A DNA stretch of 64,000 bases from Escherichia phage vB_EcoM-LTH01, in sequence record PP430345. One strand, 5' to 3'. Position numbers and translations under genes: made by a program. Within the stretch, counting starts at the first letter, position 1, and every line of letters begins with the position of its first letter. Below the pieces are notes generated by a model, which worked only from the letters and a program-made list of their open reading frames with translations, was not told the DNA's origin and made no database searches. Positions 10,041 through 64,000 of this stretch are shown here, piece by piece.

Positions 10041-10421
10041 TTAATCTTCACCTTCTGCCATTTTATACTCACGAATCTGAGTAGTTAATGGAATAGCATC
10101 TTTAAATGCATCAGAAGGGCCTTGATGAGTTTCTGAATTTGCAGAAGTAGTTCCTCCTGCCAGATCCTCTTCATTATCTTCCATTGTGTACAGATTGTTT
10201 GCCTTTTCAGCTTGCTCAAGAATATACTTCGCAGTAGTTTCTTTAACTTTCTCTGTACCGGAAGTCAGTAGACCTTCCAGAGTTTTAATTGCTTGAGGAG
10301 TAAGTCTTGCAAACTCGGAACGAGCATGAAGAATTGCTCTCTCAGTATTGATTGCAATGCTTTCCTCTGTAGTAGGCCGACCGCGTTTTCGAGTAACGAT
10401 TTCAGCTTTAGCCATAAACAC
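10041..10421 (-). CDS. hypothetical protein with AT-hook-like KRGRP motif
   Basis: 126-aa ORF inside the tRNA region; N-terminal RKRGRPTTEE. Confidence 0.4.
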   Translation of the reverse strand: MFMAKAEIVTRKRGRPTTEESIAINTERAILHARSEFARLTPQAIKTLEGLLTSGTEKVKETTAKYILEQAEKANNLYTMEDNEEDLAGGTTSANSETHQGPSDAFKDAIPLTTQIREYKMAEGED

Positions 10422-10607: not shown

Positions 10608-10682
10608 TGGTGGCCCTGGGTGGAATCGAACCACCGTCTGGCGATTATGAGTCGCTTGCTTGAACCGTCCAGCTACAGGGCC
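10608..10682 (-). tRNA. tRNA-Met (anticodon CAT)
   Basis: Acceptor GGCCCTG/CAGGGCC, anticodon loop CTCATAA, T-arm GGTGG-TTCGATT-CCACC, CCA encoded. Confidence 0.75.
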
Positions 10683-11807: not shown

Positions 11808-12052
11808 TTTGCCTCCATAAAAGTCATCTTGTAACGAGAAGTTAAGTCACCCTCGTTGGGGTAGAAGAAGTATATTCGATTTCCTTTCCCAAAGTCAATC
11901 TTTTTCCAACACTCCAGAGAAAACCCTGTAGTCTCAAAAGCAATGTCGTTACCCTCATCGAAAGCTTCATCATAGCTGTTAAAGGTATCGATATACTCTT
12001 CCGTTACGTATCCAGCAGCACCGTATTCCAGTGCAAGTTTAAAGTTTTTCAT
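11804..12052 (-). CDS. hypothetical protein
   Basis: 82-aa ORF, overlapping start/stop with upstream gene. Confidence 0.4.
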   Translation of the reverse strand: MKNFKLALEYGAAGYVTEEYIDTFNSYDEAFDEGNDIAFETTGFSLECWKKIDFGKGNRIYFFYPNEGDLTSRYKMTFMEAK

Positions 12053-12110
12053 ATTAGTTAACCAGTCAAATAAAAGTATACCTCCATTTTACTGGCATAA
12101 CCAATGATAG

Positions 12111-12356
12111 TCAATGTAACTCAAGCGATTGAAGAAGTCCAGAAATTTCTTCTTCAAGTTTAGACTCTATTTGAATCTCCTTACATGGAATCATAAACTC
12201 TGGAACCATATCGGCATAAACTCTCTCAGAAACGATTTGAGCGTTCATTGCACTCCAGTCAAGAAAAGACATGACTTCATCTGTTTCTTTCATGAGAGAG
12301 CTTCCTATTGCGTTTAAACGGCATTCTGAAACCTGATTCACGATTACCTCCATCAA
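12111..12356 (-). CDS. hypothetical protein
   Basis: 81-aa ORF; ATGA overlap with upstream gene. Confidence 0.4.
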   Translation of the reverse strand: MMEVIVNQVSECRLNAIGSSLMKETDEVMSFLDWSAMNAQIVSERVYADMVPEFMIPCKEIQIESKLEEEISGLLQSLELH

Positions 12357-12739
12357 TATCCGTACTTCTCTTTAAGTATTGGGTCGTTAACCACAATGTA
12401 ATGACGTGGTTTCGACTTCCCGTTGATTATCACCTTATCTCTGTAAATCCTGATGTAACCGCCAGTCTCCATCTTCTTAAGGAATGCACTTACCTTGGCT
12501 TGACTGGTCGGTGACATTTGAAACAACTCACACAATGCCACCTGTGATTCATAGAAACACGTTTCCACTGATTCGCCCTGTCGAGAAGCAAACTCCGCAA
12601 AGAATGAAAATCTCCACCTCAAAAGTATCATCCTCTTTAAATCCTCGCCGGACATTTCAGTAACCCAACGAAGAGGAAGCATGGCGAACGCATCGTCTTC
12701 AAAAGTCTTCTTCCCAACAGAGGTGTTTATCTCAAACAT
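12353..12739 (-). CDS. hypothetical protein, possible winged-helix DNA-binding regulator
   Basis: 128 aa; first gene of leftward operon; C-terminal SQAKVSAFLKKMETGGYIRI resembles a recognition helix/wing. Confidence 0.35.
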   Translation of the reverse strand: MFEINTSVGKKTFEDDAFAMLPLRWVTEMSGEDLKRMILLRWRFSFFAEFASRQGESVETCFYESQVALCELFQMSPTSQAKVSAFLKKMETGGYIRIYRDKVIINGKSKPRHYIVVNDPILKEKYGY

Positions 12740-12766
12740 AGACCCTCCTCTTAATCTTACCTTCGC

Positions 12767-12795
12767 TATCTTACATGACTATCCCAACATGTCAA
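12767..12795 (-). promoter_or_regulatory. putative leftward sigma70-like promoter
   Basis: Minus-strand TTGACA, 16-bp spacer, TAAGAT; about 30 nt upstream of the 12739 start. Confidence 0.3.
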
Positions 12796-12880
12796 ACCCT
12801 TTATGCCCGTTTAGGCATACAATACTATATTAGATTTCCCTGGCTCGAAGCCTCTCGCCAAACCCTTTATCATTATAATT

Positions 12881-12929
12881 TATTCATTTCATTCATAAAT
12901 TATATAATAATTATTCATTTCATTCATAA
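12881..12929. repeat. perfect 18-bp direct repeat TATTCATTTCATTCATAA x2 in AT-rich divergent region
   Basis: Copies at 12881-12898 and 12912-12929. Confidence 0.8.
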
Positions 12930-12954
12930 TTATTATTAAAAACAATAAAAACAA

Positions 12955-13013
12955 GATCTTTTATAAGATCTTTTTATATATATGATCTATAGATCTACAG
13001 ATCTTAAAGGATC
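12955..13013. promoter_or_regulatory. cluster of six GATC sites with AGATCTTTTATA-like repeats
   Basis: GATC at 12955, 12967, 12984, 12992, 13000, 13010 within 59 bp. Confidence 0.7.
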
Positions 13014-13052
13014 TTTTATAGATTTTATACTAAATTTTTTAAATTTAAAGTC

Positions 13053-13081
13053 TTGACATGGAGTTTTTACATAGGTATAGT
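13053..13081 (+). promoter_or_regulatory. sigma70-like promoter for rightward operon
   Basis: TTGACA, 17-bp spacer, TATAGT. Confidence 0.5.
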
Positions 13082-13116
13082 GACTCTACTTTAACAAACA
13101 ACAGGTTATCTTTATA

Positions 13117-13398
13117 ATGATTTTGAATAATAAATGTAAAAAGTTATCAGAGAATGAATTAAGTCATCTTCAAGCTATGAGAGAAGCTTGGCATTCAGCA
13201 AAAGCTGGACTGAAAGTATGTGTTGTGACTGTTTACGAATGTGACTGGTACACCATTTTGGGGAACTATTACGGAGTAATGAATCAGTATGTGGAAAAAG
13301 GCTTGATTTATCATCGTGTGGAAGATAGTATGAATCCTGACTTACAGCTTGTGGCTGAAGATTTGGATAATGTACTAATAACTTTGGAGATGATCTAA
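13117..13398 (+). CDS. hypothetical protein
   Basis: 93-aa ORF, first gene after promoter. Confidence 0.45.
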   Translation: MILNNKCKKLSENELSHLQAMREAWHSAKAGLKVCVVTVYECDWYTILGNYYGVMNQYVEKGLIYHRVEDSMNPDLQLVAEDLDNVLITLEMI

Positions 13399-13537
13399 TG
13401 AAAGAGTGTAACGATATTGTTGCGTTTGGATTGAACATCGTGGAGTTTGGAACAGTGTGGTTTCTGATGCTAATAGCATTTGGTGTCAGTTTGGTTAAGT
13501 ATCTTAACAAAGGTATTGGAGAGAGGAAAAGTAAATC

Positions 13538-13837
13538 ATGAAATTGATCTTTAGTGATGAATTAAGCGAGCAGTTGGAAAACATCTTTCGTGCACAGGAA
13601 AAGCCTCGGTTCTACTTGTGGTGTACAGAACTGAATGACCAGTTTAAATACCTCGAAGAAATCCTCGAAGGGAGGGGTGTAGAACTCACTGTGGCGAAAG
13701 TAAGACAGAACTGTGACAACTTATGCCTCTCTGTGATTGGTGACGCTGACGAGGTTGCTTGGATGGATATGGCCCTATTGGTCTATTCACATAATCATCG
13801 TTATAAGCACCTTCTTGTTTTGGAGCATATGGAATGA
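13538..13837 (+). CDS. hypothetical protein
   Basis: 99-aa ORF. Confidence 0.45.
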   Translation: MKLIFSDELSEQLENIFRAQEKPRFYLWCTELNDQFKYLEEILEGRGVELTVAKVRQNCDNLCLSVIGDADEVAWMDMALLVYSHNHRYKHLLVLEHME

Positions 13838-42071: not shown

Positions 42072-42581
42072 GTGGCAGCATTGAAACCTAAAGCAGAGCG
42101 CCGTGAAAATGATCGCTATGAAACTCCGAAATGGGCAGTAGATGCTTTCTTGAATTTAGTTCCAATCCGTCAGGATTGGACTTATCTGGAACCTTGCAGA
42201 GCCTCTGGAAGTTTTTATAATGAAATGCCAATTGGTTCAGCCTGGGGAGAGATTCAAGAAGGTGTTGATTATCTTGCAACTAAATACAATAAGGTAGATT
42301 GTGTGTTAACTAATCCACCTTACAATTTAGCTCAAGAGTTTGTAGAAAAAGCGCACAAGGATGCTGATGTAGTGATCATGCTTCTTCGTTTAGGTTTCCT
42401 TGAGAGTACCAAACGTGTTGAGTTCTGGAAGCAATACCCTGTTGATCACTTAGTTACTTTATCTAAGCGACCTTCTTTTACTGACGATGGTAAAACAGAT
42501 GGTGCAGCATATGGTTATTTTATTTGGGATAAAAAAGGTAAACTTGGTTTAACAAAACCTTTTTACTGGATTCACCCTTAA
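42072..42581 (+). CDS. small putative N6-adenine DNA methyltransferase
   Basis: EPCRASGSF (motif I-like) then LTNPPY (motif IV); only 169 aa. Confidence 0.4.
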   Translation: MAALKPKAERRENDRYETPKWAVDAFLNLVPIRQDWTYLEPCRASGSFYNEMPIGSAWGEIQEGVDYLATKYNKVDCVLTNPPYNLAQEFVEKAHKDADVVIMLLRLGFLESTKRVEFWKQYPVDHLVTLSKRPSFTDDGKTDGAAYGYFIWDKKGKLGLTKPFYWIHP

Positions 42582-57532: not shown

Positions 57533-58672
57533 ATGTTAGAGATGATGAACTTAGGTTCTGTCGAATTGCCAGAAGTGGAAGGTAACGTTAAGAAATTCGC
57601 CGCCGGAGGTACGGGGATTGTTGTACTTATGAAATCCGGCAACGCCTACGGTATCGGAGATCAATACTTCAGCGGTACAGGGGGGAATGTTACAACATGG
57701 AGGCTTCTGGCAAGAAACGTTGCAGATATATGGGCTGCAACTGGCTCTGTGCTTATGAGGACAACCGCAGATAGATGGTTGTTTATGGGGTTTAACCAAT
57801 ATTTTAATACTGGTTTTGGAACTACGATAACCACCCCCAGAGATATAACTACAGATATGCCTATACCCGAAGGATTTGAGATCAAGCAGTTGGTACTCGG
57901 GTATCGTAACTTGGCTGTTGTCTTTACCAATGGGCGGTATGCAATGTGCGGGACTAATAACGCAGGAGGTCTGGGGACAGGGGACACTTTTGCAGTAAGA
58001 ACCTTAACCTTAAGAACTGACTTCACAAACGTTGAAAAAATAGATCTTGATTGGGCAACCTACGACACATCTTATCTTCTTACCCAAGCTGGTGAAGTTT
58101 ATGTATCAGGTGTTTCAAATAATGGACAAAACGGGACAACTTCAAACACTACAACTTGGTTTAGGCAAAGCCCAATTAGTGGTGGTACGGTAGTTGACAT
58201 AATCGCGACAACGCTTGGGTTTTTTAGGGTTGTACTTTTAAATGGTAATTACTACGTCTACGCACAAGGGCGAAGTTCGTCAGGGAGTCTTGGGGTAAAT
58301 AACTCAGGTAACATAAACGTTCTTTCACCCTCATTGGTATTTTCTAATGTACCTTCAAGACCTCCTTTGTACATTGGTCACCTTAGCGCCCGTATTCTCC
58401 ACCCCGAAGAAAGGGTATACTATACAGGGGCGGCTACGGGTAGTTTACAAGGAGCAGGTGCACAATTTCAGTCGTCGTATTCAGTATTTACACGGCTTGC
58501 AGAGACTGTACCGTATGGTGGAGAATATTCATCCCTAAAAGGTGGCTATGTTGCACACTACTATGTAGATAAAGGAAACCTATATGGTGTCGGTAATAGC
58601 AGTGCAGGATTGCTCCCAGGTTACATAGGTACACAACTCTTCGAATTTACACCGTTGGAATTGCCGGAGTAA
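57533..58672 (+). CDS. RCC1-like beta-propeller repeat protein (paralogue 3)
   Basis: MLEMMNLG; near-collinear with paralogue 4 (FMGFNQYFNTGFGTT, TLTLRTDFTNVEKIDLDW). Confidence 0.55.
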   Translation: MLEMMNLGSVELPEVEGNVKKFAAGGTGIVVLMKSGNAYGIGDQYFSGTGGNVTTWRLLARNVADIWAATGSVLMRTTADRWLFMGFNQYFNTGFGTTITTPRDITTDMPIPEGFEIKQLVLGYRNLAVVFTNGRYAMCGTNNAGGLGTGDTFAVRTLTLRTDFTNVEKIDLDWATYDTSYLLTQAGEVYVSGVSNNGQNGTTSNTTTWFRQSPISGGTVVDIIATTLGFFRVVLLNGNYYVYAQGRSSSGSLGVNNSGNINVLSPSLVFSNVPSRPPLYIGHLSARILHPEERVYYTGAATGSLQGAGAQFQSSYSVFTRLAETVPYGGEYSSLKGGYVAHYYVDKGNLYGVGNSSAGLLPGYIGTQLFEFTPLELPE

Positions 58673-58694: not shown

Positions 58695-59846
58695 ATGTTA
58701 GAAATGATGAACTTAGGCACTGTTAAACTTCCTGCGGGAGGAGGCAGGGTCAAGAAGTTTGCAGCGGGGCAACAAGGCATCGTTGTACTTATGGAGTCTG
58801 GGAAACTCTATGGTCGCGGAAGTCAGTATTTTAGTGGTACAGGGTCTACTGTAAACACTTGGAAACTGCTAGGAACAGATATCGCAGACGTATGGACGGG
58901 TCCCGTATCAACTCTTGCAAGGACAACAGACGACAGATGGTTGTTTATGGGATTGAACCAATATTTTAACACTGGTTTTGGGACAACATGGTCCGCGCTG
59001 ACGGATGTTACAGTGGATATGCCTATCCCTGTTGGCCTTACGGTTAAGCAGGTAGTGATGGGATACATAAACGTTGCAGTAGTCTTTGCAAATGGACAAT
59101 ATGCCATGTGTGGGACAAATGTCTCCGGTGGATTGGGTGTTGGTAACACATCACCTGTGAGAACCTTAACATTAAGGACCGATTTTACGAACGTGGAGAA
59201 GATAGACCTCGATTGGGGGACATATGATACCTCCTATCTTCTTACCCAAGCTGGTGATGTTTATGTGGCCGGACAATCTTCTTATGGTCAAAACGGAACA
59301 CAGTCTAGCTCCACAACTTGGTTCAGGCAAAGTTCAGTTAGCGGCGGGACAGTGGTAGATATAGTTGCAACAACCTTAGGGTTCTTCAGGATCGTTCTTT
59401 CATCAGGGAGTTACCGAATATATGCGCAAGGGAGGGACATAAACAATAGTCTTGGAACTAACACCACAAGCAACACACCTCGACTGGCCCCTGTATTAGT
59501 TCTTTCGGGAATAGCAAGTGCAGTAAGACCAAGGGTATATATCAGTCACTATGCTGCCCGAGTTATAGATAGCGATGGAGTAGTATACTTTACAGGACAA
59601 GGGACGGGAGATCTACAGGGTGTTGGGACCACACCTCAACCAACGTATCGTGTTTTTTCACAGCTTGACCCAATAGTTCCGTCCGTAGGTGATTATTTTT
59701 CCACAAGATCTCAGTACCTGACTAACTATTATTTGGAAGATGGTGTTCTGTATGGTGTTGGTCAGGGTGCTCAAGCAACACAGTTACTACCTGGTTATGG
59801 AACGACACAGGTTCTGACTTTCTCTGTTCTGGAATTACCGGAATAA
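58695..59846 (+). CDS. RCC1-like beta-propeller repeat protein (paralogue 4)
   Basis: MLEMMNLG; closest to paralogue 3. Confidence 0.55.
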   Translation: MLEMMNLGTVKLPAGGGRVKKFAAGQQGIVVLMESGKLYGRGSQYFSGTGSTVNTWKLLGTDIADVWTGPVSTLARTTDDRWLFMGLNQYFNTGFGTTWSALTDVTVDMPIPVGLTVKQVVMGYINVAVVFANGQYAMCGTNVSGGLGVGNTSPVRTLTLRTDFTNVEKIDLDWGTYDTSYLLTQAGDVYVAGQSSYGQNGTQSSSTTWFRQSSVSGGTVVDIVATTLGFFRIVLSSGSYRIYAQGRDINNSLGTNTTSNTPRLAPVLVLSGIASAVRPRVYISHYAARVIDSDGVVYFTGQGTGDLQGVGTTPQPTYRVFSQLDPIVPSVGDYFSTRSQYLTNYYLEDGVLYGVGQGAQATQLLPGYGTTQVLTFSVLELPE

Positions 59847-62650: not shown

Positions 62651-63162
62651 TAATGCCCAAATATCGTACAACGATTCCCACAAATATCGATTCATCCCAA
62701 AATTAGGTAGTTTGCCTAAAGAGTAACCACTACTTGGCCTACTGAGGCGCATCTTTTGCCACAGAGTTACCTCCCTTCCCTATACATCCATCCCTCATAG
62801 TTTAGAATTTCCAGTATATGTCTACTCTGAGTGGACCTCCATCATGAATTTTAAACGACAACTTTTTAGTTTTTATACCCTCCCGCCAAAATTTTGAGTC
62901 ACCTCTTATGGGGTATGCCGCCTGTGAATATCCCACAAAATATCTCACAGGTCATAAAATATACCTCCCCGCCAAATTTTATGATGGATACTCCACGGGG
63001 GTGGGTCCATTATTTATCCTGCCCAAATATATCTAAAGGGGGTAGCCTAAAGAGGCTCGCCAGTAGTGTCCCTTGACCTTGTTCCTCGTCAGCAAGAAAG
63101 AAGAGGATGTTTGCATCTTTTTTGTTGAGTGCGTTGGCACTGTTGCCAGGCACGGCGACCGT

Positions 63163-63183
63163 GGGGGAGGGGGAGGGGGTCGG
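63163..63183. repeat. polypurine tract GGGGGAGGGGGAGGGGG
   Basis: Read directly; a second purine-rich run GGGAGAGAAGAGAGAAGAGAG lies near 63593-63613. Confidence 0.6.
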
Positions 63184-63675
63184 ATGTTTTCAAAATATCC
63201 AGGAAGTCAAGCATTATTTCTATTTATTTTCAATCCACAATACATCTTTGATTCGACTTGTCAAGAAAAATGTTGTGCTCTTCCAACAATAAAGTTAAAG
63301 ATTTCTATTGACTTCTGAATCTGATTTAGAATACTGATTTCAATCTGCATTTAACATAATACAACTTATACGCACTACAAGCGACTTGCAAGCGCCCTTC
63401 TTCCAGTCCAACAAGTGAGGCGACCTCAAGCCCCGCCAGGTCTGGCCCCTTCCAACTTGTGAGAAGAATAATCCCAACTTGTTACTATCCAACTGTGAAT
63501 TATTCCAACTGTACAGAAGCGACTCCATCAGGGCCATCAATAGCCTGAGCGCCCCGCCATACTCTGGCAATAAAAGCAAGAAAAAATTTATTTTGGGAGA
63601 GAAGAGAGAAGAGAGTTTTACCTAGCAATATTCTATTGTCTGTTCATTCTGTGGGCAAGTAACAGCCTTTTACGG

Positions 63676-63726
63676 CCTCTTTGTGTACTGTGCATCCTCT
63701 TTGTGTACCCTACAGCCTCTTTGTGT
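63676..63726. repeat. 3 x CCTCTTTGTGT direct repeats at 20-bp periodicity (iteron-like)
   Basis: Copies at 63676, 63696, 63716. Confidence 0.8.
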
Positions 63727-64000
63727 GGTCACACTAACGGCCTTCCTATTGACTAGCTATTCACTTTATATGAATAACAAAGCATTAAATAATTCAATAT
63801 TATCTTCGATAATGTATTGACAAAAGATAAAAGATTACTACAAGTAGACACTATAAAACGAGGAAACGAAGAGAACAGATAGCAACAATCTGTTTCGTTG
63901 ATATCGGTTATCACCGATGACCGCATAGCGGTAGGAGGGGTATACTCGTTTTATAGTGTCGCTCCCTACGGTCGCGCCACCTCCATACTCTGGCAATGGT

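What the first reader, a model, noticed from the sequence alone, without database searches (positions are those of the whole stretch)
12740..13116. Divergent control region with six GATC sites in 59 bp and an 18-bp direct repeat
The region separating leftward and rightward operons is AT-rich and holds a perfect 18-bp direct repeat (TATTCATTTCATTCATAA x2) and six GATC sites within 59 bp embedded in AGATCTTTTATA-like repeats, flanked by outward promoters. Dense GATC clusters are typical of Dam/SeqA-regulated origins and promoters, so this is a candidate replication origin or methylation-sensitive switch.
Basis: partly seen in the sequence, partly recalled or inferred. Interest (0 to 1): 0.55.

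Follow-up and report, generated by a model that had tools for sequence, protein, structure and literature searches.

The report
Phage divergent control region, GATC-rich
This is the conserved back-to-back promoter region of a large E. coli phage, and its unusual DNA (an almost pure A+T stretch with two hairpin repeats and six GATC sites beside a DNA-binding protein's site) could be a methylation-sensitive switch, a replication origin or both.

Summary
Window 12740-13116 lies in a Septuagintavirus-like phage (Vequintavirinae). It holds six GATC sites in 59 bp, all GATCT, the densest cluster in a relative's whole genome. It holds the exact 18-bp repeat twice, and outward sigma-70 promoters on both sides.

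New anatomy:
- Each repeat is a conserved 11-nt centre between perfect A/T-only inverted arms, and the arms change in a compensatory way in relatives.
- Window 12873-13072 is by far the least stable duplex in the 145-kb genome.
- A 22-bp palindrome beside the leftward promoter is swapped together with the adjacent 128-aa winged-helix gene between near-identical phages, so it is that protein's site.
- The GATC tract stays with the rightward promoter.
- High GATC density is limited to a few genera. Only an AAGATCT core next to an A-rich motif is subfamily-wide.

Function is unproven. My best reading (0.45) is an early-promoter hub with a supercoil- and Dam/SeqA-sensitive upstream element. The close rival (0.35) is a transcription-activated origin. 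GC skew cannot decide, because it follows transcription direction. A packaging site is unlikely, since termini and an insertion-free region in relatives map to a different, convergent non-coding region. This is a new variant of a known kind, of moderate interest.

The parts
12353..12739 (-). 128-aa extended winged-helix DNA-binding protein (phrog_8453), the first gene of the leftward unit that runs on to the tRNAs, spanins, terminase and structural genes
12768..12795 (-). Leftward sigma-70 promoter, TTGACA-16-TAAGAT, for the winged-helix gene
   Evidence: The TGTCAA hexamer is conserved at the same place in CR3, CR9, F1M1E, PVP-SE1, KB57, Hena1, Ro1, Av05 and Kashira.
12800..12821 (.). 22-bp palindromic operator TTTATGCC-CGTTTA-GGCATACA, the inferred binding site of the 128-aa protein, centred about 50 bp upstream of the leftward start site
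   Evidence: TGCC-N6-GGCA occurs exactly twice in the A7_1 genome, against 0.9 expected. The two copies are extended 38-bp matches. Each winged-helix variant in relatives has its own palindrome type. Gene and palindromes are exchanged together between KB57 and KpS8, whose flanks are 97.8% identical.
12819..12835 (+). ACAATACTATATTAGAT, a conserved motif that follows the operator. ACAATACTA(AC) is kept across genera and in the second genomic copy.
   Evidence: Its function was not determined.
12874..12904 (.). Hairpin repeat 1: arms TATAATTTAT / ATAAATTATA around the centre TCATTTCATTC.
   Evidence: The arms are perfect, 9-12 bp long and made of A and T only.
12904..12936 (.). Hairpin repeat 2: arms ATAATAATTAT / ATAATTATTAT around the same centre. 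It contains 18-mer copy 2.
   Evidence: Five different arm sequences occur across Septuagintavirus, Certrevirus, SSBI34, Kashira and ChuuTotoro, and every one is perfectly complementary. The changes include A:T to T:A swaps and one G:C pair. The centre keeps the form TC..T..CA.TC. A single-strand DNA fold gives both hairpins, z = -3.4.
12938..12959 (+). AAAAACAATAAAAACAAGATCT, an A-rich core ending in the first GATC. It is the one part of the tract conserved in all genera compared.
   Evidence: Alignment (AAAAAC-AA(T/G)AAAAC-...-AAGATCT). It marks the left boundary of the segment that is not exchanged in the KB57/KpS8 cassette swap.
12954..13029 (.). GATCT-repeat tract: six GATC sites at 12955, 12967, 12984, 12992, 13000 and 13010, plus a decayed copy AGATTTTATA at 13020
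   Evidence: The unit number varies: A7_1 lacks one 8-bp GATCTATA unit plus AT, while UPEC06 is identical to the window.
12873..13072 (.). Least stable 200 bp of duplex in the whole genome. Window 12873-13052 is 14% G+C.
   Evidence: Nearest-neighbour free energy is -204 kcal/mol, against a genome mean of -262 (sd 9.8). The next least stable window is -230. G+C content.
13029..13081 (+). Rightward early promoter: an UP-like A/T tract, then TTGACA-17-TATAGT
   Evidence: with 11 of 12 consensus positions matched. It fits the Certrevirus early-promoter consensus AAAA(N3)TGTTGAC(N19)TATAAT, which includes an UP element (PMC7344957). It is the only TTGAC promoter in the window with more than 3 GATC sites in the 120 bp upstream.
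13117..13398 (+). First gene of the roughly 49-kb rightward unit (93 aa, phrog_12865, function unknown). At the DNA level it is conserved together with the AT tract.
   Evidence: The blastn matches to Certrevirus phages cover window 12873-13436 only.
42072..42581 (+). Phage N6-adenine DNA methyltransferase (169 aa, NPPY motif), a possible source of GATC methylation
   Evidence: Annotated as a DNA N-6-adenine methyltransferase in A7_1. Present throughout the subfamily. ClaI digestion of Certrevirus CB7 DNA is consistent with Dam-type methylation (PMC7344957). Its specificity was not tested here, and Pfam gave no hit.

Best explanation
This is the subfamily-conserved divergent early control hub of the phage. 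It is built from two separable modules.

Module 1 is the 128-aa winged-helix protein and its 22-bp palindromic operator, which lies next to the -35 element of the protein's own leftward promoter. This is autoregulation. A second operator lies elsewhere in the genome.

Module 2 travels with the strong rightward sigma-70 promoter and its first gene. It is a 200-bp, 14% G+C tract made of two cruciform-capable hairpin repeats, an A-rich core and GATCT repeats.

Proposed mechanism, all inferred:
1. The two outward promoters push negative supercoils into the tract.
2. The tract melts or extrudes its hairpins easily, and so tunes promoter firing.
3. The six closely spaced GATC sites, methylated by host Dam and/or the phage methyltransferase, form a high-affinity SeqA platform once the DNA has been replicated and is hemimethylated.
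4. In this way the tract reports 'unreplicated versus replicated' to the early rightward promoter.

Shown: the anatomy, its uniqueness in the genome, its conservation, and the link between protein and operator. Inferred: supercoil sensitivity, Dam/SeqA action, and the direction of the effect. The same tract could also serve as an origin (see the first rival). The two readings do not exclude each other.
For: - Promoters and an UP-like tract are present and match the published Certrevirus early-promoter consensus.
- Operator and protein are linked. The cassette swap replaces the gene and its palindromes but not the GATC tract or the promoter, and each protein variant has its own type of palindrome.
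- The operator occurs at a second locus, A7_1 69454, upstream of another promoter, as expected for a regulator with a small regulon.
- In Seunavirus and Mydovirus a third palindrome sits between the promoter and the ribosome-binding site, the classic autorepression position.
- The GATC tract is conserved at the DNA level together with the rightward promoter and gene 1.
- In Certrevirus two GATC sites lie in the promoter spacer and in SSBI34 one does, while the total stays at 5-6. Positions turn over but density around this promoter is kept.
- The cluster is unique among the window's promoters and in the genome.
- A phage adenine methyltransferase is present, and relatives are reported to be Dam-methylated.
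- SeqA is known to modulate the lambda pR promoter (PMC7466680).
- In Bas54, insertions in the analogous winged-helix gene and its sites are tolerated at a fitness cost, which fits a regulator.
Against: - No experiment bears on methylation or SeqA at this site.
- The GATC sites are far upstream, at -133 to -78.
- GATC density is not significant in Mydovirus, Henunavirus, Kashira or TH18, so a Dam-dependent role cannot be the conserved function.
- The flanks of the motif are conserved (AAGATCT), and some copies have decayed to GACC or GATT while keeping those flanks. That pattern points to a sequence-specific factor rather than to 'any GATC'.
- A region this extreme (z about 6 for instability, compensatory hairpins, more than 100 bp of pure A+T in Av05 and TH18) is more than ordinary promoters need.
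- The protein's nearest structural neighbours are replication-initiator winged helices rather than MarR-type regulators, though by a small margin.
Confidence: 0.45

Rival explanations
1. A replication origin activated by transcription. The AT tract would be the DNA-unwinding element. The divergent promoters would supply negative supercoiling, and the RepA_N/DnaD-like winged-helix protein bound next to the tract would help to open it or mark it. The phage's T7-like primase-helicase and family-A polymerase would load there. Methylated GATC sites would lower duplex stability, and hemimethylated sites would be sequestered by SeqA, as at oriC and P1 oriR.
For: - This is the single least stable 200 bp in 145 kb.
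- Av05 and TH18 carry more than 100 bp of pure A+T at the same place.
- The tract is a unique, non-coding element conserved across genera.
- The inverted repeats show compensatory changes.
- The protein and its sites are exchanged as one cassette, as lambdoid O and ori are.
- Long family members carry acidic C-terminal tails ending in ..VPF..PPF or ..TNF, like the tips of SSB and T7 gp2.5/gp4 (the comparison rests on my own knowledge).
- rV5 has an analogous unit: a winged-helix gene annotated 'replication initiation protein', four palindromic 18-mers, and an AT tract with AGATCT.
- There are four AGATCT hexamers here, the single-strand ATP-DnaA box of the E. coli unwinding element (PMC4285127).
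- The cumulative GC-skew minimum falls here.
Against: - This phage has only one palindrome at the locus, not an iteron array.
- A second operator copy exists elsewhere in the genome.
- There is no match to Pfam RepA_N or Phage_rep_O, and the 128-aa protein lacks any C-terminal effector domain.
- There are no DnaA boxes.
- The skew is explained by transcription direction.
- The tract lies upstream of both promoters, so no R-loop primer would form in it.
- In Bas54 the analogous gene and sites are not essential, and a different 2.5-kb non-coding region is the one free of insertions.
Confidence: 0.35
2. The GATC content is incidental. The tract would be an array of binding sites (AAGATCTWW) for an unidentified sequence-specific protein, phage or host. 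Alternatively it is simply slippage-prone, curved A/T DNA that serves as a promoter upstream element, with methylation playing no part.
For: - The flanks of the motif are conserved, and copies that have decayed to GACC or GATT keep those flanks.
- The number of units varies by 8-bp steps between near-identical phages.
- Only 2-3 GATC sites are present in several genera.
- All six sites point the same way, as GATCT.
Against: - In Certrevirus the GATC sites also sit in a different context, the promoter spacer GGATCATTGGATCA, while the total is maintained.
- GATC is favoured across the genome (observed/expected 1.66) in a phage that encodes an adenine methyltransferase.
Confidence: 0.13
3. A packaging (pac) site of the P1 type, in which clustered GATC hexamers must be methylated before the terminase cuts.
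For: - The GATC cluster recalls P1 pac (my own knowledge).
- The leftward unit leads to the terminase gene about 4.4 kb away.
- Certrevirus genomes are reported to be circularly permuted and packaged by the headful.
Against: - In the Mydovirus KPP-1, which shares this locus architecture, the 514-bp terminal repeat maps to a convergent non-coding region elsewhere.
- That region has a counterpart at window 62.7-64.0 kb and corresponds to the insertion-free region of Bas54.
- For CB7 no preferred end was seen.
- The cluster is not in or next to a small-terminase gene.
Confidence: 0.05

Closest known systems
E. coli oriC unwinding element (13-mers, AGATCT single-strand ATP-DnaA boxes) with SeqA sequestration
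   Same: It is an AT-rich, thermodynamically weakest segment with densely spaced GATC sites, four of them AGATCT. Six sites in 59 bp is denser than my recollection of 11 in about 245 bp at oriC.
   Different: There are no DnaA 9-mer boxes and no IHF or Fis sites. The match to the 13-mer consensus is no better than background. It lies between divergent phage promoters, and replication from it has not been shown.
P1 oriR core (GATC-containing heptamer repeats in an AT-rich segment, beside RepA iterons; bound by SeqA when hemimethylated)
   Same: GATC-bearing short repeats in an AT-rich stretch, next to the binding sites of a small initiator-like protein whose gene is adjacent. This comparison rests on my own knowledge.
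   Different: There is one palindromic site rather than five 19-bp iterons, and no DnaA boxes. The protein is unrelated in sequence to P1 RepA. The host genome is a virulent 145-kb phage with its own replisome.
Lambda ori (palindromic iterons, an AT-rich tract, activation by pR transcription, SeqA modulation of pR)
   Same: Palindromic sites with an A-rich centre lie next to an A-rich AT tract. The protein and its sites are exchanged as a specificity cassette. There is a nearby strong promoter and GATC sites upstream of it (PMC7466680).
   Different: The sites are not inside the initiator gene. There is one site here (2-3 in Seunavirus and Mydovirus, 4 in rV5). There is no homologue of the O C-terminal domain or of the P helicase loader. 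The tract is not transcribed.
RepA_N-type initiators and their origins (pSK41 and pTZ2162 RepA; PLE RepA of Vibrio cholerae)
   Different: There is no Pfam RepA_N match. The window protein is an N-terminal domain alone, with no C-terminal domain, and has no iteron array. ORC2 winged helices score as high and ordinary winged-helix regulators only about 1.5 Z units lower.
Dam-controlled promoters (Mu mom, IS10 pIN, pap, agn43; SeqA-stimulated lambda pR)
   Same: GATC sites are clustered upstream of, and in Certrevirus inside, a sigma-70 promoter, in a Dam-positive host and a phage that encodes an adenine methyltransferase.
   Different: No OxyR-like or Lrp-like competitor site was identified. 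There are six sites rather than two to four, they lie far upstream (-133 to -78), and they sit in a tract with other structural features.

Membership tests
oriC-like, DnaA-dependent, SeqA-sequestered origin | Cluster of GATC sites well above background | tested here: met
   Six sites in 59 bp. This is the densest cluster in the window and in the A7_1 genome. P = 1.8e-4 against local composition and 0.026 genome-wide.
oriC-like, DnaA-dependent, SeqA-sequestered origin | DnaA 9-mer boxes (TTATCCACA) next to the unwinding element | tested here: not met
   Nothing within 1 mismatch of the strict box in 12701-13160. The relaxed pattern gives only two 1-mismatch matches, both outside the tract.
oriC-like, DnaA-dependent, SeqA-sequestered origin | AT-rich 13-mers of the form GATCTnTTnTTTT | tested here: inconclusive
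   The best copies have 2-3 mismatches, and 66 sites in the window match as well. The AGATCT hexamer occurs four times here, against 34 in 64 kb.
oriC-like, DnaA-dependent, SeqA-sequestered origin | Replication starts here | not testable with these tools
   This needs marker-frequency sequencing or 2D gels. GC skew is confounded by transcription.
Iteron-type origin (lambda O/ori; RepA_N plasmids; PLE) | Adjacent initiator with a family-specific DNA-binding domain | tested here: inconclusive
Iteron-type origin (lambda O/ori; RepA_N plasmids; PLE) | Array of two or more directly repeated initiator sites at the origin | tested here: not met
   There is one palindrome at this locus in the window phage. 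There are two to three in Seunavirus, Mydovirus and Henunavirus, two in Av05 and four in rV5.
Iteron-type origin (lambda O/ori; RepA_N plasmids; PLE) | AT-rich unwinding element beside the sites | tested here: met
   Window 12873-13072 is the genome's least stable 200 bp, and it begins about 50 bp from the palindrome.
Iteron-type origin (lambda O/ori; RepA_N plasmids; PLE) | Protein and sites co-vary as a specificity unit | tested here: met
   The KB57/KpS8 cassette swap. The same pattern is also expected for a repressor-operator pair.
Iteron-type origin (lambda O/ori; RepA_N plasmids; PLE) | Initiator and sites are needed for replication | not tested
   Only indirect evidence exists. In Bas54 the analogous bas54_0212 has 17 of 20 TA sites disrupted, is classed 'Intermediate', and has about 10-fold lower counts.
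P1-type pac site | Virion DNA ends, or the first packaging cut, map to the GATC cluster | tested here: not met
   By literature on relatives only. The KPP-1 terminal repeat lies in a convergent non-coding region, and CB7 shows no preferred end. No reads were available for this phage.
Dam-regulated promoter | GATC sites in or near a promoter, together with a source of Dam methylation | tested here: met
   The sites lie at -133 to -78 here and in the spacer in Certrevirus. A phage N6-adenine methyltransferase is present, but its GATC specificity has not been verified.
Dam-regulated promoter | Promoter output depends on methylation state | not testable with these tools
   This needs reporter assays or RNA-seq in dam and seqA backgrounds.

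The most novel reading that the evidence does not exclude
Vequintavirinae use a previously undescribed type of origin. A stand-alone RepA_N/DnaD-like winged-helix protein would bind one or a few palindromes next to a Dam-methylatable, cruciform-forming, nearly pure A+T tract. Divergent host-polymerase transcription would melt the tract, and the phage's T7-like primase-helicase would load there. In other lineages the winged-helix protein carries an SSB-like acidic tail that recruits the replisome. The protein-plus-site cassette would be freely exchanged between phages, while the unwinding element stays fixed.
Probability: 0.3. Interest if true: 0.7.

Novelty: new variant of a known kind. Interest (0 to 1): 0.45.

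Why it matters
No origin, early regulatory switch or role for DNA methylation has been defined for Vequintavirinae, a common and therapeutically used group of broad-host-range enterobacterial phages. I found none in the papers I read. The rV5 authors tried skew analysis for an origin and failed.

This locus offers a compact and directly testable candidate. It contains:
- one protein and one 22-bp site;
- two hairpins;
- six GATC sites;
- one strong promoter.

If it is an origin, it would show how a T7-like replisome is started in a 145-kb myovirus that depends on host RNA polymerase. If it is a Dam/SeqA-sensitive switch, it would be a way for a virulent phage to tell unreplicated from replicated genomes. 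In either case the exchangeable protein-plus-operator cassette and the fixed AT tract are useful handles for phage engineering.

Tried and rejected
1. GC skew as a test for an origin. The minimum falls at the locus, but every turn in the skew coincides with a change of transcription direction, and the four blocks show no separable replication term.
2. DnaA boxes, IHF sites and oriC 13-mers. Absent, or no better than background.
3. Rfam. No match in window 12000-13700 at E up to 1.
4. PDB sequence search with the single protein. It returned designed 'Symfoil' beta-trefoils through a short repeated motif, which I regard as spurious. The profile search gave only weak DeoR and ArsR helix-turn-helix hits.
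5. A direct link between the 128-aa protein and rV5 gp075. BLASTP found nothing, and hhalign gave E = 0.011 at 4% probability. The only bridge is a shared weak match to Pfam DUF6945 through P0029. I therefore treat the two as positional analogues, not proven homologues.
6. Genomic context of the long-tailed homologues. Three of the four contigs are 1-3 kb and uninformative. P0029 lies upstream of portal, capsid and terminase genes.
7. The pac hypothesis. Rejected on the terminal-repeat mapping in KPP-1 and the Bas54 data.
8. Whether presence of the methyltransferase tracks GATC density. It does not. The enzyme is present across the subfamily.
9. The experimentally mapped theta origin of ICP1, whose polymerase is related, as a model. 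The divergent spacers near 57.6 and 63.5 kb are plain promoter regions with no comparable tract, and the neighbouring protein is unrelated.
10. Other early promoters with GATC clusters. None found.
Full report
**Identity of the window.** Window 12300-13600 is 97-98.5% identical to Escherichia phages UPEC06, A7_1, A5-4, A73 and W70. These are the recently named genus Septuagintavirus in the subfamily Vequintavirinae (PMC11370258). I assembled the complete A7_1 genome of 144,828 bp from three fetches. The window is its reverse complement. The locus separates two units. The leftward unit runs through the 128-aa gene, small genes, five tRNAs, the spanins and the terminase into the structural genes. 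The rightward unit is about 49 kb and carries the ligase, nucleotide metabolism genes and the methyltransferase.

**Check of the observation.**
- Six GATC sites start at 12955, 12967, 12984, 12992, 13000 and 13010.
- The exact 18-mer occurs twice, at 12881 and 12912, and nowhere else.
- A near-consensus promoter points each way: TTGACA-17-TATAGT at 13053-13081 on the + strand, and TTGACA-16-TAAGAT from 12795 to 12768 on the - strand.

The cluster is the densest in the window. It is also the densest in the whole A7_1 genome, where one 8-bp unit is missing and five sites remain. GATC is the most over-represented 4-bp palindrome in the window (observed/expected 1.66), so a uniform-placement null gives only P = 0.026 for six sites in 60 bp. 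Against the local 27% G+C composition, P is about 1e-4. All six sites read GATCT, compared with 32% of sites genome-wide. None of the other 27 TTGAC-type promoter matches in the window has more than three GATC sites in its upstream 120 bp.

**Finer anatomy.** The '18-bp direct repeat' is the core of two adjacent inverted repeats. Repeat 1 (12874-12904) is TATAATTTAT-[TCATTTCATTC]-ATAAATTATA. Repeat 2 (12904-12936) is ATAATAATTAT-[TCATTTCATTC]-ATAATTATTAT. Across Septuagintavirus, Certrevirus, SSBI34 and two Serratia phages I found five different arm sequences. Every one pairs perfectly over 9-12 bp, through A:T to T:A swaps and one G:C pair. The 11-12-nt centre keeps the form TC..T..CA.TC. A conserved loop with co-varying stems is the signature of a hairpin or cruciform rather than of a dimeric protein site. 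As single-stranded DNA the tract folds into exactly these hairpins, z = -3.4. No promoter that would transcribe them was found, and Rfam has no match. I therefore read them as DNA-level structures.

Window 12873-13052 is 14% G+C. The 200 bp at 12873-13072 have a nearest-neighbour stability of -204 kcal/mol, against a genome mean of -262 (sd 9.8). The next weakest window in 145 kb is -230. The tract is a lone outlier.

**The neighbouring protein and its site.**
- *Sequence family.* No Pfam family reaches threshold. The family is tiny, with 19 representatives among 1.84 billion proteins. Four long members (233-253 aa) add a helical segment and an acidic tail ending in VPF, PPF or TNF. From my own knowledge this resembles the tips of SSB and of T7 gp2.5 and gp4. 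The window protein has no such tail.
- *Its site.* Next to its own -35 element lies the 22-bp palindrome TTTATGCC-CGTTTA-GGCATACA (12800-12821). Three observations tie the site to the protein.
  1. Each protein variant in other genera sits beside its own palindrome type: TGCC-N6-GGCA, ATTCCC-N4-GGGAAT, GTCCCC-N4-GGGGAC, GTGCTCA-N3-TGAGCAC. A metagenomic relative shows TTGTTCC-N6-GGAACAA.
  2. Klebsiella phages KB57 and KpS8 have flanks 97.8% identical, yet carry different winged-helix genes and different palindromes. The exchange ends just to the left of AAAAACAATAAAACATAAGATCT.
  3. The window-type palindrome occurs exactly twice in the A7_1 genome, as 38-bp matches. The second copy, at 69,454, lies upstream of another promoter.

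The KpS8-type protein resembles rV5 gp075. RefSeq calls both 'replication initiation protein', on weak grounds. In rV5 that gene is followed by four palindromic 18-mers and an AT tract carrying AGATCT and GGATCT. The same design therefore recurs with a different protein family.

**What is and is not conserved.**
- The order is kept in every genus examined: winged-helix gene, promoter, palindrome(s), extreme AT tract, UP-like tract, TTGACA promoter, small early gene.
- Within the tract, only AAAAAC-AA(T/G)AAAAC followed by AAGATCT is universal.
- GATC counts are 5-6 in Septuagintavirus, Certrevirus and SSBI34, 4 in Seunavirus, and 2-3 in Mydovirus, Henunavirus and the Serratia phages.
- Av05 and TH18 instead have more than 100 bp of pure A+T.
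- In Certrevirus two of the GATC sites sit in the promoter spacer.
- Some copies have decayed to GACC or GATT while keeping their flanks.

The dense cluster is therefore a lineage-specific amplification of a conserved core, probably by slippage of 8-12-bp units. The property that is conserved across the subfamily is an exceptionally meltable tract between divergent promoters.

**What it does.** The tools cannot show function, so I weigh four readings.
- *(a) Regulatory hub, 0.45.* The promoters and the operator are as good as sequence evidence allows. The operator has a second genomic copy. The AT/GATC module is inherited together with the rightward promoter. GATC density is maintained around that promoter even as positions change. 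The phage encodes an adenine methyltransferase, and relatives appear to be Dam-methylated. SeqA is known to modulate lambda pR.
- *(b) Origin, 0.35.* The evidence in favour is the extreme instability, the unique conserved non-coding block, the hairpins and the initiator-like fold. The iteron-style palindromes converging on a poly-A tract, the cassette exchange and the tailed homologues point the same way. Against it: this phage has only one palindrome at the locus. There are no DnaA boxes, and no family-level sequence match. The tract is untranscribed. In the rV5-type phage Bas54 the analogous gene (bas54_0212, 17 of 20 TA sites hit, 'Intermediate') and its spacer tolerate insertions with about 10-fold lower counts. 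The insertion-free 2.5-kb region lies between convergent genes. Non-essentiality does not exclude an origin, because T4 and T7 tolerate the loss of single origins (my own knowledge).
- *(c) GATC incidental to another binding motif, 0.13.*
- *(d) P1-like pac site, 0.05.* The 514-bp terminal repeat of KPP-1 maps to the convergent non-coding region. Its counterpart is at window 62.7-64.0 kb.

Readings (a) and (b) are not exclusive.

**Comparison with known systems and verdict.** The region works like a mixture of known designs.
- GATC-laden unwinding elements, as in oriC and P1 oriR.
- A palindromic-iteron-plus-AT-tract origin with transcriptional activation, as in lambda.
- Dam-sensitive promoters.

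It fails at least one defining test for each family. There are no DnaA boxes, no iteron array, no RepA_N or O sequence membership, and no termini at the site. I found no description of this element in the Vequintavirinae papers I read. I rate it a new variant of a known kind, of moderate interest, with a clear experimental route to a decision.

Noticed in passing
window 62727-64000 (runs off the window end); A7_1 88,600-90,500 = L014 38600-40500: A non-coding region of about 1.9 kb lies between convergent transcription units. It has three 20-bp tandem repeats (TACGGCCTCTTTGTGT at 63671, 63691 and 63711), a 21-bp inverted repeat (63847-63867 / 63940-63960), C-rich runs and early-type promoters. 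By position it matches the 514-bp terminal-repeat region of KPP-1 (a 30-bp match at 63348-63377) and the 2.5-kb region of Bas54 that takes no transposon insertions. It is a better candidate than the studied locus for packaging signals or termini, and is an alternative candidate for an origin.
   Followed up: partly
outside the window: A7_1 69,454-69,490 (L014 19454-19490): A second copy of the operator plus the ACAATACTATATTAGAT motif (38 bp, 97% identical). It lies between a stop codon and a terminator-like hairpin, about 140 bp upstream of another TTGACA promoter. The 300 bp just downstream hold 8 GATC sites, the highest 300-bp count in the genome, though this is not significant genome-wide.
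   Followed up: partly
L007 (KB57) 1169-1866 versus L027 (KpS8) 1070-1664: Between Mydovirus phages whose flanks are about 98% identical, the winged-helix gene and its palindromes have been replaced as one cassette by an unrelated winged-helix gene of the rV5 gp075 type, with different palindromes. At least six phages carry each version.
   Followed up: yes
proteins P0025, P0027, P0028, P0029 (metagenomic homologues); L023 830-1080: Long homologues (233-253 aa) of the 128-aa protein end in acidic tails with ..DTVPF, ..DWVPF, ..IDPPF or ..WRTNF, which resemble the SSB C-terminal tip. Upstream of P0027 lie three palindromes (TTGTTCC-N6-GGAACAA type) flanking an AT tract with two GATC sites.
   Followed up: partly
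whole window: Tetranucleotide biases: GATC is the most over-represented 4-bp palindrome (385 sites, observed/expected 1.66). CTAG is strongly avoided (0.14), and CGCG, GCGC and CCGG are also low (0.28-0.45).
   Followed up: no
window 12984-12991, compared with A7_1: The window and UPEC06 carry one extra 8-bp GATCTATA unit plus an AT dinucleotide relative to A7_1. The number of GATC units therefore varies within the genus, which is consistent with slippage.
   Followed up: yes
window 12793-12804 and 12859-12870: The exact 12-bp direct repeat CAAACCCTTTAT occurs 66 bp apart. One copy overlaps the leftward -35 element and the left arm of the operator. The other lies just before hairpin repeat 1. 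Its meaning is unknown.
   Followed up: no
window 9235-9732 and 10608-10682 (- strand): Five tRNA genes (Gln, Gly, Pro, Tyr, Met) lie in the leftward unit, between the small genes and the spanin and terminase genes.
   Followed up: no
window 10041-10421 (- strand): A 126-aa protein (phrog_3330, no Pfam hit) has an N-terminal RKRGRPT motif and a helical body. It looks like a small terminase subunit, which is not annotated in these phages. This is a guess from the motif only.
   Followed up: no
window 58000-58270 and 59162-59432: A 271-nt direct repeat at 73% identity lies within two adjacent ORFs of 379 and 383 aa (57533-58672 and 58695-59846), which appear to be tandem paralogues.
   Followed up: no
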